Virus record (IMG/VR): IMGVR_UViG_3300025528_000001
Source: a virus
Length of the DNA stretch: 53,120 nt
Direction: 5' to 3' (one strand)
Made by a program: the position numbers. Positions 42,001-45,000 of this stretch are shown here, in pieces (position 1 is the first letter of the stretch; each line of letters starts with the position of its first letter).

Positions 42001-45000
42001 CGGCGACAACAAGTCGAGTGTCCGGCGTGTAAGAAGAGAGTAACCGTGCTAATGGACGCCGAGGACTTTGAGTGTCCGAGGTGCAAGAAAGCGGTAATTT
42101 TAGATTGGACTGAATGAAGAATAGGCTCGCGCAAATTGCGTGGGCTTATTTTTTTTTTTGAAATTTATGGTGCAGTTTTAGACGCGGTTTTGTCTATGTA
42201 AAGTATAGGGCGAAAAAATTTTTTAAAACGTGGTGCAATTTCGGTCGCAATTTTGGTTAATAGAGTATAGGGTGAAAAAGTGACCAACTTTGCTCATATC
42301 GAACGATAGTATATATGAAAGGGTTAAAAACGCCCAAAAATCTACATCAACGAATATATAACATACAGGAAAAATAATAAGAAAGAAGGGGTATTAGTTA
42401 TGGATGGATTAACAAAGATTTTTAATTACGAAGGACGTCAAGTAAGAACCGTATTAGTGAACAATGAACCTTGGTTTGTTGCAAAAGATGTCTGTGAAAT
42501 ACTAGAAATTACAAATCCAACTATGGCTTTACAAAGATTAGATAACGATGAACGGGCTAAGTTCAACTTAGGGCGTCAAGGTGAAACAAATATTGTTAAT
42601 GAACCTGGCCTCTATACATTAATTCTTGGCAGTCGTAAACCCGAAGCTAAACAATTCAAACGCTGGATCACTCATGAAGTTATTCCAACTATTCGTAAAA
42701 CTGGTGGATATGTCGCGAATGATGAATTATTTGTTAATACATATTTACCATTTGCAGATGAACAAACGAAATTACTTTTCAGTGCGACGTTGGAAACTGT
42801 CAGAAAACAGAATGAGCAAATCGCAATAATGAAACCAAAGGTTGAACAACATGACAGATTTATTTCAGCGGAAAATTTACAAACATTAGAACAAGTAAGT
42901 AAGACATTAGGAATTGGCAGGAATAAACTATCTGCGTTTTTAAAAGCCGCAGGCGTGTTTACTCAAAAAGGCGGTTCGCCTATTCCTTACCAACGTTTTA
43001 TAAATGAAGGATATTTTAAAGTGAAACAAACACCTTCACGATATTACGAATTCAACAATGTTCAAACGTATGTTACGGCTCGTGGTGTGTCGTATATTGA
43101 TAAGTTATTAATCGAACATGGAGGTGCCGAATATATAAACTCTATGCGCTTAAAAGATATTTCTCGTTTTCCAATGAAGGCGAATTTAGCTTAGTAAAGG
43201 AGGTCAACGCCAATTGACACAACCAAACGCATATATACGAACCGGCACAACCCGAACCGGCTTTTCGCTAATGTTCCACGAAATTTTCGATTTATACCAC
43301 CCGTACATCGGCGACAAGGCAACGCTATACTATCTATACTTACTGCGTTATCGCAATCATGACGAAGGTCGCGCGTGGAAAGGCCGCGCCAGTGTTACGG
43401 AAAAATTCCAACTGTCCTACTCGACACTGCCGGTGCTCGACGCGATACTAGAGGCGTCGGGGCTGGTAACGCTTGAATATAAGCCAAGCGGGCGCGGCAA
43501 AGACCGGATTGTTTACGTCGTACACGACCCGCTAGACCGGGCAAGATTCCGCGAAAATGAGGAGGAAATACGCGAGAAGATACGAGCGGTCAGGTGTAAG
43601 TATGACAACGCCGGAAGTCTGCTTGGCAAGGAAAAAGGTCAAAAACTACCGGAGTAAAGATACAATCTATGTTAGTAGAGATTATTATCTACCGAAGAAT
43701 AAATGAAAAAGAAGTATTTAAAAAGAACTTATAAAAAAGAATAAATACTTTGCGCTTCGCTATCGCTCGCGCCATCAATCAATACTACTTATATTCTTCT
43801 GCGCAGAGTATTTTATATAAAATATAAAAGAGATTAAGACATAAAATCGAAGCCACACGGCGCGCCGTCAGCTCAGACGACTAAAAATGTCACGTGCGCC
43901 GCCCGCGCCAAAATCACCGAAAAGGAGCCGATACTATGCCATTAAATATCGAAGTCACGCCGGACTACCGAATCACGTCCGACACACTGAACATCATCCT
44001 CCAAAAGCGCTATACCGTCGACCCGACGAAATCGCCGAACTGGCCACGTATGCAAGCGGAAGGCGCTGACCCAACGCCACGCACCGAATGGCGCGACGAA
44101 GGCTATTACGAAACGTTAGAAGGAGCAATCAACGGAATCATTGACCGCCAGTTAAAAGAATCTGACGCGGAAAGCCTGACGGAATTGCTTATGGAAATCC
44201 GCAAAATTCGTGACAAAATAGGCGAGGTGTTGCGTTCATGAAGAAATACCCTAGGCGACGTTTAAAACGGCTATTACGCCGAGAATTTTACGGAAAAAGG
44301 ACGGTGAAATCGCATGAATAACGGCAAGTTGCCCGGATTTAAAACTGCGGCGTATTACCAGTCGTTTCAAACGACAATTAAACGGTCTTTGGACGCAATT
44401 AAAACTAGGAAGGAAGGAGAAAGGAATGACTAAGCAACACAAACCATCGCAATACGACTGGCAAGCCCGTGACATTACGGACTGGAACGCAAATACATTC
44501 CTTGCTTTTATCGGCGACAAGACGAAGGAACTTTACGGTGTCGATTATGCGCCGGGCGGAACTGGCGCTAAATCAGCCCGATGGTCGAGAGAGCGCGGAA
44601 TGTTGAAGAACGCGCAAGGGCGTTACGGCAACGCGGTATTAAAACGATTTATCGAAATATGTTGGCGCGAATATCGGACGAATAAGCCCGATCAATTTCC
44701 GTATCCGACCGTTGTTTTCATGATTTCCTACATGGATCGTTTTTTCGCTGTTGCTCAGTCCGAAATCGCGCGGGAGAATCGACGGAAAAAAGTTGACGAA
44801 GTTGATTACGAAGAATTAGCGGATTGGTTATAAGGAGGTGTAGCCGTTGAAAATTCGCATTATAAAATCGTCAGGCCCGCTATATTGGTACGCCAAAGAA
44901 ATCGGAAAAGAATTCGACGTGATTTCATACGATTCCAATGAATACCGCACTTATTACGGAATAGTCGCCGGTGATGACGCTGCCTTAACGCTGCCTGACT

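What the first reader, a model, noticed from the sequence alone, without database searches (positions are those of the whole stretch)
42168..42279. A 49-bp conserved element occurs three times and heads both rightward early operons
Copies A (42168-42216) and B (42231-42279) sit in tandem, 63 bp apart, upstream of the antirepressor. Copy C (49855-49903) sits 7.6 kb away, immediately upstream of the sigma-like gene. All share TGGTGCA, a 12-nt variable spacer, then (G/A)TTTTG(G/T)..TA....AGTATA(G/A)GG and an A-run. B and C are about three-quarters identical by hand count. The blocks do not fit sigma-A -35/-10 spacing and are not palindromic. Possible roles are promoters for the phage-encoded sigma-like protein, asymmetric operator or 'stoperator'-type repressor sites, or a shared 5'-leader RNA.
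Basis: seen in the sequence. Interest (0 to 1): 0.65.

Follow-up and report, generated by a model that had tools for sequence, protein, structure and literature searches.

The report
Promoters for a phage-encoded sigma factor
A ~45-bp DNA element repeated at the head of both early operons of this temperate phage is most likely the promoter read by the phage's own sigma factor, which would switch on itself and the replication genes once an XRE repressor lets go.

Summary
Three copies (42168-42216, 42231-42279, 49855-49903) match one pattern that no shuffle of the window produces; B and C are 37/49 identical. A carries one extra base, and a decayed fourth copy lies at 42281-42323.

The element is conserved in relatives. 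It sits just before the ribosome-binding site of every sigma-like homologue with enough upstream DNA (about 15 distinct phage or prophage types). Five or more clades (eight loci) also have a second, usually tandem, copy 6-10 kb upstream, at the start of the replication operon.

Evidence on function:
- Block 1 (TGKNSCA) differs between clades but is mostly the same within a phage.
- It tracks a residue in the sigma's C-terminal helix, not the neighbouring XRE repressor.
- That repressor has its own inverted-repeat operators on a conserved sigma-A promoter 48 bp upstream of copy C.
- No RNA structure is predicted.
- The 201-aa protein is a divergent two-domain sigma-70-family member.

Best reading: these are cognate promoters of the phage sigma, forming a positive-feedback early switch similar in logic to SigN of pBS32. 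No transcription start site or protein binding has been measured. This is a new member of a known kind, of moderate interest.

The parts
42116..42160 (+). Intrinsic terminator (18-pair stem plus T-run) ending the upstream Zn-ribbon membrane-protein gene. It insulates the early operon from read-through.
   Evidence: sequence
42168..42216 (+). Copy A. Block 1 TGGTGCA 42168-42174; central block GTTTTGTCTATG, divergent and with one extra base; block 3 AGTATAGGG 42202-42210; then an A-run that merges into the A6T6 tract upstream of B.
42231..42279 (+). Copy B, the best match to the family consensus. Block 1 42231-42237; block 2 ATTTTGGTTA 42250-42259; block 3 AGTATAGGG 42264-42272; A-run.
42281..42323 (+). 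Decayed copy B' (TGACCAA-N12-CGAACGA...ATATGAAAGGG). It is positionally homologous to the last distal copy of relatives L003 and L022.
   Evidence: hand alignment
42321..42369 (+). Leader conserved between clades (GGG-loop-CCC, AATCTACA, AACATACAGG) lying between the promoter array and the first gene, although that first gene differs between phages.
42400..43194 (+). Bro-N/ANT antirepressor, first gene of the distal operon that runs through the DnaB-like helicase (46633-47976) to the primase (48238-49206).
49267..49491 (-). XRE (HTH_3) regulator, 74 aa.
49545..49745 (-). XRE66 (HTH_26) regulator, divergent from the sigma gene. A homologue was found in this position in most relatives examined (not in L006, L011 or Tripp).
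49778..49806 (+). P1, a sigma-A-type promoter (TTTACT-17-TATAAT) aimed at the sigma gene. It overlaps a leftward promoter (49826-49797) for the XRE genes. In relatives an imperfect, clade-specific inverted repeat lies over its -35.
49838..49854 (+). A/T-rich tract directly upstream of block 1, resembling an UP element. The equivalent 17 nt average 84% A+T over 20 copies.
49855..49903 (+). Copy C. Block 1 49855-49861; block 2 GTTTTGGTTA 49874-49883; block 3 AGTATAAGG 49888-49896; A-run running into the Shine-Dalgarno AAGGAG 49901-49906.
49918..50523 (+). Sigma-like gene (201 aa, TTG start). A divergent sigma-70-family protein with a sigma-2 domain, an acidic linker and a C-terminal helical domain. 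It heads the long operon with PolA, RNR and methylases.

Best explanation
The element is the promoter class recognised by host core RNA polymerase carrying the phage's own 201-aa sigma factor (49918-50523).

Proposed anatomy (inferred):
- An A/T-rich, UP-like tract sits upstream of block 1.
- Block 1 (TGKNSCA) is the -35 element, read by the sigma's C-terminal domain.
- A variable spacer of fixed length, 12 nt, follows.
- Block 2 (TTTTGGTTA) covers the -10 region.
- Transcription starts in or just before block 3 (AGTATARGG).

Proposed circuit (inferred):
1. In the lysogen, XRE66 (and XRE74 where it is present) sits on inverted repeats over the -35 of the sigma-A promoter P1 (49778-49806) and keeps the sigma gene silent.
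2. When repression lifts, P1 makes the first sigma.
3. Sigma then fires copy C, giving positive feedback on itself and on the PolA/RNR operon.
4. Sigma also fires the tandem copies A and B. These are the only credible promoter of the terminator-insulated antirepressor-helicase-primase operon.
5. The antirepressor would reinforce the commitment to lytic growth.

What is shown: the repeats, their conservation, their positions, the co-variation and the sigma fold.

What is inferred: recognition by the sigma, the -35/-10 assignment, the start site and the circuit.
For: 1. The repeat is real and not chance: 3 hits against 0 in 100 shuffles.
2. A recognisable copy precedes every sigma homologue that has upstream DNA, always on the same strand and ending 0-12 nt before the SD. 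This covers about 15 distinct loci down to 30% protein identity, including the cultured phages Tripp and KLEB27-1.
3. Distal copies, often in tandem about 62-65 bp apart, head the early or replication operon in the window, L003, L005, L006, L009, L016, L019 and L022. They are always upstream of p147/DnaB/primase homologues, although the first gene varies.
4. In the window the distal array directly follows an 18-pair terminator, and no sigma-A-like promoter is found between 41764 and 42626.
5. Block 1 is clade-specific and mostly uniform within a phage: TGGTGCA x3 here, TGTCGCA x3 in L003, TGTCCCA x3 in L009. L001 and L005 carry two block-1 types. The central block is also phage-specific in L005 and L006.
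6. Block-1 positions 3-5 track the third residue of a conserved H-R-x motif in the sigma C-terminal helix. K goes with TC(G/C) in five clades, R with GTG, T with TAC/TTA and S with GTC.
7. The element is decoupled from XRE66. L003/L019 and L016/L022 have different XRE66 helix-turn-helix sequences and different inverted repeats on P1. They share the same element, and the sigma C-terminal helix is the same in L003, L016 and L019 (L022 departs; see the Against line).
8. The protein is a sigma. The top Foldseek PDB hits (ranks 1-50) are sigma-factor chains or RNAP holoenzyme complexes, and the N-terminal 90 residues superpose on sigma-E region 2 (TMt 0.76-0.80, rmsd 2.4-2.8). NCBIfam gives sub-threshold matches to SigI and sigma70-ECF over residues 53-193. 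A family profile hits SigH, SigF, SigW and SigI6 chains at E of about 4e-4 to 8e-4.
9. Geometry. The block 1 to block 2 spacing is invariant at 12 nt, whereas block 2 to block 3 varies by one base. The 17 nt upstream of block 1 average 84% A+T. In L006, L007 and Tripp the SD overlaps block 3, so the start site must lie at or before block 3.
10. There is precedent for this architecture. sigN on pBS32 has sigma-A promoters plus a SigN-dependent auto-activating promoter, and its regulon includes nucleotide-synthesis and DNA polymerase genes (PMC6751061).
Against: - There is no experimental start site, binding or expression data for any copy.
- Blocks 1 and 2 lack the AAC and CGT cores typical of ECF promoters.
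- Block 3 is the best-conserved block across distant clades, yet in this model it lies at or downstream of the start site, where strong conservation is unusual.
- Some tandem copies (window A, L003 dist1, L009 dist1, L001 t3 and t4) keep blocks 1 and 3 but have a different or decayed central block. That would fit a protein contacting blocks 1 and 3 rather than a -35/-10 pair.
- The residue-to-block-1 correlation follows the sigma phylogeny in part. It has two exceptions: L022, and the L011/L026 clade.
- The C-terminal half of the structure model has low confidence (pLDDT 45-63).
- Transcripts from P1 would already cover the sigma gene, so copy C is not strictly required for its expression.
Confidence: 0.6

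Rival explanations
1. The element is a host-sigma (sigma-A or a host alternative sigma) promoter that needs a phage DNA-binding activator. Blocks 1 and 3 would be the activator's contacts. The -10 would be a weak TAnnnT, either nAGTAT at 33-38 or TAATAT at 28-33. The 'sigma-like' protein could itself be that activator, like the sigma-like late-gene activators of the RinA type.
For: - nAGTAT keeps the A at hexamer position 2 and the T at position 6 in the large majority of class-1 copies.
- With that -10, block 1 would centre near -41, a classical class II activator position.
- Copies with a decayed central block still keep blocks 1 and 3.
- The right half loosely resembles sigma-B-type promoters of the form GTTT-N16-GGGnAn (hand comparison; consensus from my own knowledge).
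- RinA-family activators are a known precedent (PMC3152322, listed).
Against: - With a -10 at 33-38, or at the GGG, the start site would fall inside or after the SD in L006, L007 and Tripp.
- The G of the sigma-B GTTT is not conserved; position 20 is G, A or T.
- The protein has a sigma-2 (core-binding and -10-reading) fold rather than only a helix-turn-helix.
- The block 1 to block 3 distance varies by 1 bp, which is awkward for a rigid two-site binder.
Confidence: 0.2
2. The copies are asymmetric operators for a phage repressor: XRE66, XRE74 or another protein. The tandem 63-bp (six helical turns) spacing would allow cooperative binding, in the manner of phi105 operators or mycobacteriophage stoperators.
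For: - There are direct, non-palindromic repeats in tandem at about 62-65 bp in several clades.
- Two XRE genes sit next to copy C.
- The sequence variants are clade-specific.
Against: - There are only 3-4 copies, all at operon heads, not dozens spread through the genome.
- XRE66 recognition regions differ between L003/L019 and L016/L022 while the element is the same.
- Each clade already has a classical inverted repeat over the -35 of P1 that changes with XRE66.
- XRE74 is missing from most relatives that keep the element.
- Phage Tripp has the proximal element but no adjacent XRE.
- This reading leaves the terminator-insulated distal operon without a promoter.
Confidence: 0.08
3. The element acts as RNA. 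It would be a shared 5' leader, for example a nut/put-like antitermination or processing signal, transcribed from upstream promoters at the head of both early operons.
For: - Copy C lies inside the transcript predicted from P1, about 48 nt downstream of its -10.
- One copy at the head of each of two long operons is the layout of nut and put sites (my own knowledge).
- Block 3 contains a -10-like sequence in what could be early transcribed DNA.
Against: - RNAalifold on 18 copies predicts 0 base pairs.
- Single-copy folds have z-scores of -0.8, -1.2 and +1.3.
- There is no Rfam match, apart from a sub-threshold hit on the upstream terminator hairpin, which lies outside the element.
- A and B have no promoter upstream, only a strong terminator.
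- The spacer varies freely without compensating changes.
Confidence: 0.05
4. The copies are iterons of a replication origin, bound by one of the replication-initiator-like proteins of the distal operon.
For: Direct repeats in A/T-rich DNA lie next to the replication module, and phrog_270/phrog_154 'replication initiation protein' matches occur at 43214-44241.
Against: - One copy always abuts the SD of the sigma gene, 7-10 kb from the others, in a fixed orientation and at a fixed distance.
- There are only two good tandem copies.
- The element persists where the first genes of the distal operon differ.
Confidence: 0.03

Closest known systems
SigN (ZpdN) of Bacillus subtilis plasmid pBS32 and its promoters (PMC6751061)
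   Same: - Both are sigma factors carried on a mobile element and only weakly ECF-like.
- The sigN gene is preceded by repressor-controlled sigma-A promoter(s) plus a promoter that depends on the sigma itself, giving positive feedback.
- The regulon is confined to the element and includes DNA polymerase and nucleotide-synthesis genes, like the PolA/RNR operon here.
   Different: - No sequence similarity was detected; tblastn of the plasmid collection gave no pBS32 hit at E <= 0.1.
- The SigN consensus (TTTACG ... GATATAAA) is unrelated to TGKNSCA-N12-TTTTGGTTA-AGTATARGG.
- SigN's sigma-A promoter is repressed by LexA, whereas here the likely repressor is a phage XRE.
- About 19 SigN promoters are known, against 3-4 here.
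- SigN's role is experimentally proven; this one is not.
Autoregulated ECF (group 4) sigma factors and their promoters, e.g. B. subtilis SigW, SigX and SigM, and E. coli sigma-E
   Same: - The protein has a two-domain sigma (sigma-2 plus sigma-4) of about 200 aa.
- A candidate cognate promoter lies directly upstream of its own gene.
- Block 1, TGnnnC(A), has the same T1, G2 and C6 as the TGAAAC/TGTAAC -35 elements.
- A 16-17-nt distance from block 1 to TGGT matches ECF spacing.
- The consensus sequences cited here are from my own knowledge.
   Different: - The AAC core of the -35 and the CGT core of the -10 are absent.
- There is a third strongly conserved block plus an A-run downstream.
- No anti-sigma gene was recognised next to it.
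- The HMM matches fall below the family cut-offs (TIGR02937: 27.4 bits against a cut-off of 42.9).
Phage-encoded sigma factors that reprogramme host RNAP (SPO1 gp28 and gp33/34, T4 gp55, phiEco32 gp36)
   Same: A phage sigma redirects host core RNAP to phage-specific promoters that do not look like sigma-A promoters (my own knowledge).
   Different: - Those are virulent phages using sigma cascades for middle and late genes.
- Here a temperate, integrase-bearing phage appears to put its early and replication genes, and the sigma itself, under the phage sigma, downstream of an XRE switch.
- The promoter sequences are unrelated.
Mycobacteriophage stoperators and phi105 asymmetric operators
   Same: Both are asymmetric, directly repeated, phage-specific sites in a fixed orientation relative to transcription.
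   Different: - Stoperators are 12-14 bp and occur in tens of copies along the genome.
- Here there are 3-4 copies of a 43-bp tripartite element, found only at operon heads.
- The sequence is uncoupled from the neighbouring repressor.

Membership tests
Sigma-70-family protein (the candidate reader of the element) | Sigma-2 domain fold (core-binding and -10-recognition helices) | tested here: met
   The AF2 model's N-terminal 90 residues have pLDDT 69-90. Foldseek PDB hits ranks 1-50 are sigma-factor chains or RNAP holoenzyme complexes. Sigma-E region 2 superposes at TMt 0.76-0.80, rmsd 2.4-2.8.
Sigma-70-family protein (the candidate reader of the element) | Sigma-4 helix-turn-helix domain at the C-terminus | tested here: inconclusive
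   TIGR02937 aligns across residues 53-193 but below its cut-off. A family profile aligns to the SigH chain 3mzy over positions 55-188 at E 4e-4. However, the model's C-terminal half has pLDDT 45-63.
Sigma-70-family protein (the candidate reader of the element) | Reaches the curated family thresholds (Pfam Sigma70_r2/r4, NCBIfam) | tested here: not met
   Sigma70_r2 scores 18.8 bits against a cut-off of 24. All NCBIfam hits are below their cut-offs. Only 2 of 50 family members hit Sigma70_r2 at E <= 0.01.
Sigma-70-family protein (the candidate reader of the element) | Binds core RNAP and directs promoter-specific initiation | not testable with these tools
   Requires in vitro transcription or pull-down experiments.
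ECF-type autoregulated promoter | Located directly upstream of the sigma's own gene | tested here: met
   Copy C ends 15 nt before the start codon. The same holds at about 15 distinct relatives.
ECF-type autoregulated promoter | Two conserved elements separated by a spacer of fixed length (about 16-17 nt) and variable sequence | tested here: met
   The block 1 to block 2 gap is exactly 12 nt in all 20 tabulated copies, with free sequence variation. TGnnnC to TGGT is 16-17 nt.
ECF-type autoregulated promoter | AAC motif in the -35 and CGT motif in the -10 | tested here: not met
   The consensus is TGt.gCA ... TTTTGGtTA.
ECF-type autoregulated promoter | Transcription start 5-8 nt downstream of the -10, dependent on the sigma | not testable with these tools
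   The only support is an indirect bound: the SD overlaps block 3 in L006, L007 and Tripp. Contig ends gave no information.
Sigma-A (housekeeping) promoter | TTGACA and TATAAT hexamers 16-18 nt apart | tested here: not met
   The consensus scan finds no site at A, B or C. It does find P1 at 49778-49806 and the 41736-41764 promoter.
Stoperator or asymmetric repressor operator | Many copies spread along the genome in one orientation | tested here: not met
   There are three copies plus one decayed copy, all at two operon heads.
Stoperator or asymmetric repressor operator | Sequence co-varies with the immunity repressor | tested here: not met
   The XRE66 helix-turn-helix and the P1 inverted repeats differ between L003/L019 and L016/L022, while the element is unchanged.
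Structured cis-regulatory leader RNA (nut/put-like or Rfam family) | Conserved secondary structure with covariation, or a match to a known family | tested here: not met
   RNAalifold predicts 0 pairs on 18 copies. Folding z-scores are -0.8, -1.2 and +1.3. The only Rfam hit is on the terminator hairpin.
Single-subunit (T7-like) RNAP promoter, considered because of the TATAGGG resemblance | The phage encodes a single-subunit RNA polymerase | tested here: not met
   The ORFs scanned in Pfam, which include nearly all those of 430 aa or more, are PolA, RNR, methylases, terminase, portal, a tail protein and an amidase (32234-34441 had no Pfam match). The 1038-aa ORF at 28281-31397 (presumably the tape-measure protein) and the minus-strand 500-aa ORF at 34471-35973 were not scanned.
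SigN/pBS32 system | Sigma homologous to SigN and promoters matching TTTACG-N14-GATATAAA | tested here: not met
   There is no pBS32 hit by tblastn of the plasmid collection. The consensus sequences are unrelated. Only the regulatory architecture is similar.

The most novel reading that the evidence does not exclude
The element may be an unusually long, tripartite promoter covering about 60 bp with its A/T tract. Block 3 is the block best conserved across distant clades, and it sits at or after the start site. It could be a second functional signal built into each promoter, such as a sigma-dependent promoter-proximal pause or loading site for a processivity factor, or a required initial transcribed sequence.

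In addition, sigma-less integrative elements such as L001 carry arrays of these promoters with two different block-1 specificities. That would let a satellite-like element sense induction of more than one helper phage by borrowing their sigma factors.
Probability: 0.15. Interest if true: 0.7.

Novelty: new member of a known kind. Interest (0 to 1): 0.5.

Why it matters
If this reading is right, a group of temperate Bacillota phages controls its whole early and replication programme through a private sigma factor that amplifies itself. Cultured relatives infect Paenibacillus larvae, Bacillus and Sporosarcina. The sigma is released by an XRE-controlled sigma-A promoter, rather than the early genes being driven directly from sigma-A promoters repressed by CI.

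The finding assigns a function to a protein family currently listed as unknown:
- It matches phrog_24888, annotated 'unknown function'.
- The homologue in Tripp is annotated as hypothetical.
- The family comprises about 240 clusters at 50% identity.

It also supplies a concrete promoter consensus and natural specificity variants (TGGTGCA, TGTCGCA, TGTACCA, TGTCCCA, paired with H-R-R/K/T). These could be used to study how a minimal sigma reads its -35 element, and they could serve as orthogonal expression parts for Gram-positive hosts. The circuit can be tested with ordinary reporter and 5'-end mapping experiments.

Tried and rejected
- **Megablast against GenBank phages.** Searching 41500-50600 gave no match, so no close annotated relative exists.
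- **Genome-contig scan with the sigma alignment.** 171 pattern matches, none confirmed. The collection evidently lacks representatives carrying this prophage type.
- **Transcript ends from contig ends.** L012 begins right after block 3. However, seven contigs carrying the identical sigma start at arbitrary places, so contig ends carry no start-site information.
- **Host or organism names.** The listing of cluster members returned none.
- **Rest of the L001 contig.** I tried to retrieve it to see whether a sigma gene lies further downstream, but the same stored stretch came back.
- **T7-like promoter reading** (TATAGGG). Rejected because no single-subunit RNAP was found.
- **Sigma-54 reading** (TGGCAC-N5-TTGC). 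Rejected by inspection; the GG/GC spacing is absent.
- **Sigma-B-like reading** (block 2 as -35, GGG as -10). Rejected because the start site would fall inside or after the SD in L006, L007 and Tripp, and because the G of GTTT is not conserved.
- **RNA-structure reading.** Rejected.
- **Literature.** Searches for phage sigma factors in temperate Bacillus or Paenibacillus phages found no description of this family or motif.
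Full report
**Observation**

The window is a circularly closed temperate siphophage-type genome. Bases 1-99 equal 53022-53120. It carries a tyrosine integrase (40368-41408, minus strand), terminase, SPP1-type portal, tail and amidase genes, and a long rightward early region.

TGGTGCA-N12-NTTTTG-N8/9-AGTATARGG matches 42168-42210, 42231-42272 and 49855-49896 and nothing else. It matches nothing in 100 shuffles. B and C are 37/49 identical, and their similarity extends upstream to 86 nt at 71%. A decayed fourth copy (42281-42323) follows B.

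All copies are intergenic:
- A and B follow an 18-pair terminator (42116-42154) and precede the Bro-N/ANT antirepressor gene.
- C lies between two leftward XRE genes and the sigma-like gene.

**What the neighbouring protein is**

The 201-aa product of 49918-50523 gives only a weak Sigma70_r2 hit in Pfam and falls in phrog_24888, annotated 'unknown function'. Other evidence points to a sigma factor:
- An AlphaFold model built on 18 homologues has a confident N-terminal domain. The Foldseek PDB hits listed (ranks 1-50) are sigma-factor chains or RNAP holoenzyme complexes. The first ~90 residues superpose on sigma-E region 2 at TM 0.76-0.80, rmsd about 2.5 A.
- NCBIfam gives sub-threshold matches to SigI and to the sigma70-ECF superfamily model across residues 53-193.
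- A 50-member family profile finds SigH, SigF, SigW and SigI6 chains at E of about 4e-4 to 8e-4.

The family is small and distinct, with 240 clusters at 50% identity at E <= 1e-3. I treat it as a divergent two-domain sigma-70-family protein. The C-terminal domain assignment is less secure.

**The element in relatives**

I collected loci in four ways: protein search, locus retrieval from viral and metagenome collections, look-ups of specific homologues and GenBank phages. Gene order is conserved: DnaB-like helicase, primase, leftward XRE66, rightward sigma-like gene, then PolA.

An HMM built from eight copies, followed by inspection, found the element upstream of every sigma homologue that has upstream DNA. 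It is on the same strand and ends 0-12 nt before the Shine-Dalgarno sequence. This holds down to 30-38% identical homologues:
- L005, L006 and L007;
- Paenibacillus phage Tripp, where the gene is annotated hypothetical;
- Bacillus phage KLEB27-1, where it is annotated as a sigma factor.

A second site 6-10 kb upstream heads the early or replication operon in L003, L005, L006, L009, L016/17, L019 and L022. In L003, L005 and L009 (as in the window) these distal sites are tandem copies about 62-65 bp apart. The window's layout is therefore a conserved design. Tripp differs: its left early operon has a classical CI/Cro-type switch and only the sigma-proximal copy is present.

**Anatomy**

Twenty copies placed in register give the consensus TGt.gCAaa.......a..aTTTTGGtTA.taatAGTatA.GG..aAAAa. 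Four features matter:
1. The gap between block 1 and block 2 is always 12 nt and its sequence varies freely. The block 2 to block 3 distance is 8 or 9 nt.
2. The 17 nt upstream of block 1 average 84% A+T and often read AAAAAGTTTCAAAAACA. This resembles an UP element abutting a -35 (the comparison rests on my knowledge of UP-element consensus).
3. Block 1 is clade-specific and mostly uniform within a phage: TGGTGCA here, TGTCGCA in L003/L016/L019/L022, TGTACCA in L004/L025 and TGTCCCA in L009. L001 and L005 carry two types. Clade II also changes block 3 to AGTGTA at both its distal dist2 copy and its sigma-proximal copy. L005 and L006 each have their own central block, shared by their distal and proximal copies.
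4. In L006, L007 and Tripp the SD overlaps block 3. If the geometry is homologous and the SD is used, transcription must start at or before block 3.

Feature 4 excludes readings that place the -10 in block 3 or at the GGG (the sigma-B-like reading). It favours block 1 as the -35, block 2 as the -10 region (TGnnnC-N16/17-TGGT, which is ECF-like spacing) and a start site in or near block 3.

**Who reads it**

Two candidate readers sit next to copy C.

They also have different inverted repeats over the -35 of a conserved sigma-A-type promoter P1: ATGTTGCC-N4-GGAACAT against CTTTACTTTT-N10-AAAAGTAAAG. They nonetheless share the same element, and the sigma C-terminal helix is the same in L003, L016 and L019. 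L022's helix departs, as noted below. XRE66 therefore has its own operator at P1 and is uncoupled from the element. P1 itself (here TTTACT-17-TATAAT, 49778-49806) is present in every clade 45-80 bp upstream of the proximal copy.

*The sigma tracks block 1.* The third residue of a conserved H-R-x motif in its last helix co-varies with block-1 positions 3-5:
- K with TC(G/C) in clades II and IV, L006, L007 and KLEB27-1;
- R with GTG in clade I;
- T with TAC or TTA in clade III and Tripp;
- S with GTC in L005.

The exceptions are L022 and clade V. This correlation is partly confounded by phylogeny, so it is suggestive rather than proof.

**Need for a promoter**

The antirepressor-to-primase operon sits directly behind a strong terminator. 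No sigma-A-like site is found between 41764 and 42626. The number of sigma-A-like matches across the early region is no higher than in shuffled sequence: 24 against 20.6 +/- 4.9. A and B are the only conserved candidate promoters.

**Rivals tested**

- *RNA leader.* RNAalifold finds no base pair on 18 copies. Single-copy folding z-scores are -0.8, -1.2 and +1.3. Rfam finds only the terminator.
- *Stoperators.* The copy number and distribution do not fit.
- *T7-like promoter.* No phage RNAP was found.
- *Activator-dependent host-sigma promoter.* This remains the main rival. Some tandem copies (window A, L003 dist1, L009 dist1, L001 t3 and t4) keep blocks 1 and 3 but not block 2. Block 3 is also the block most conserved across distant clades, which the sigma model does not fully explain.

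**Model**

XRE-controlled P1 makes the first sigma. Sigma then fires C, giving autoregulation and expression of the PolA/RNR operon, and A/B, giving the antirepressor and replication genes.

The closest characterised analogue is SigN of pBS32. It has LexA-repressed and constitutive sigma-A promoters plus a SigN-dependent auto-activating promoter, and a plasmid-restricted regulon of DNA polymerase and nucleotide-synthesis genes (PMC6751061). There is no detectable homology and the consensus differs, so the resemblance is in how it works, not in family membership.

**Novelty and limits**

Phage- and plasmid-encoded sigma factors with cognate promoters are a known kind. This family and its promoter consensus are undescribed in the literature I could search and are annotated as hypothetical or unknown. 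I file it as a new member of a known kind, with moderate interest.

All functional statements are inferences from sequence comparison. No start site, binding or expression data exist.

Noticed in passing
L001 (IMGVR_UViG_2846075492_000002), minus strand, about 5027-4600: Four tandem copies of the element carry two different block-1 types: TGGTGCA once and TGTCCCA three times. They head an operon with a RepO/RepL-like wHTH protein and an HNH nuclease. Upstream lie integrase, HTH_36, resolvase, FtsK/SpoIIIE and Replic_Relax genes. No member of the sigma family is encoded in the 14.5 kb held. This could be a satellite or integrative element that borrows helper-phage sigma factors. The rest of the contig could not be retrieved.
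   Followed up: partly
window 49775-49830 and the equivalent regions of L003, L016, L022, L004, L009, L021, L026: Overlapping divergent sigma-A-type promoters lie between XRE66 and the sigma gene. In relatives clade-specific inverted repeats lie over the -35 of the rightward promoter and change with the XRE66 helix-turn-helix; the window's own repeat is imperfect. These are probably the real XRE operators and the lysis-lysogeny control point.
   Followed up: partly
window 42321-42369: The leader downstream of the distal promoter array is conserved in L003, L016, L019 and L022, although the first gene differs (antirepressor, a 270-aa protein, a ParB-like protein). It has a GGG-loop-CCC mini-hairpin, then AATCTACA and AACATACAGG. 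It may be a 5' stabiliser or a regulatory site.
   Followed up: no
window 15776-15845 (+): A match to the Rfam skipping-rope RNA (RF02924), 49.6 bits against a gathering score of 36.7. It lies in a 280-bp gap between genes of the long rightward operon.
   Followed up: no
window 1-99 and 53022-53120: An identical 99-bp stretch at both ends. The window is a circularly closed or terminally redundant assembly of a 53,021-bp genome.
   Followed up: yes
window 4985-8665: The ribonucleotide reductase is interrupted. 4985-6403 carries RNR_Alpha, a B12-RNR insertion domain and an intein splicing domain, and the barrel domain continues in a separate ORF at 7313-8665. Relatives carry LAGLIDADG or HNH genes in the same operon.
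   Followed up: no
window 41714-42117: Strong back-to-back sigma-A-type promoters (11/12 and 10/12 matches) lie between a small leftward ORF next to the integrase and a rightward 109-aa membrane protein with a C-terminal zinc ribbon (phrog_10121). The latter gene ends at the terminator before copy A. It is a likely lysogeny-expressed gene, and L003 has an analogous promoter plus membrane-protein gene at the same place.
   Followed up: partly
window 11789-13084 and 13412-14491: Two DNA methyltransferases (N6_Mtase/Eco57I-type and N6_N4_Mtase) lie in the sigma-headed operon.
   Followed up: no
L005 3760-3900: The distal array of L005 contains one copy with TGGTCCA, as in its proximal copy, followed by a second copy with TGTCCCA. 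As in L001, one array mixes block-1 types.
   Followed up: no
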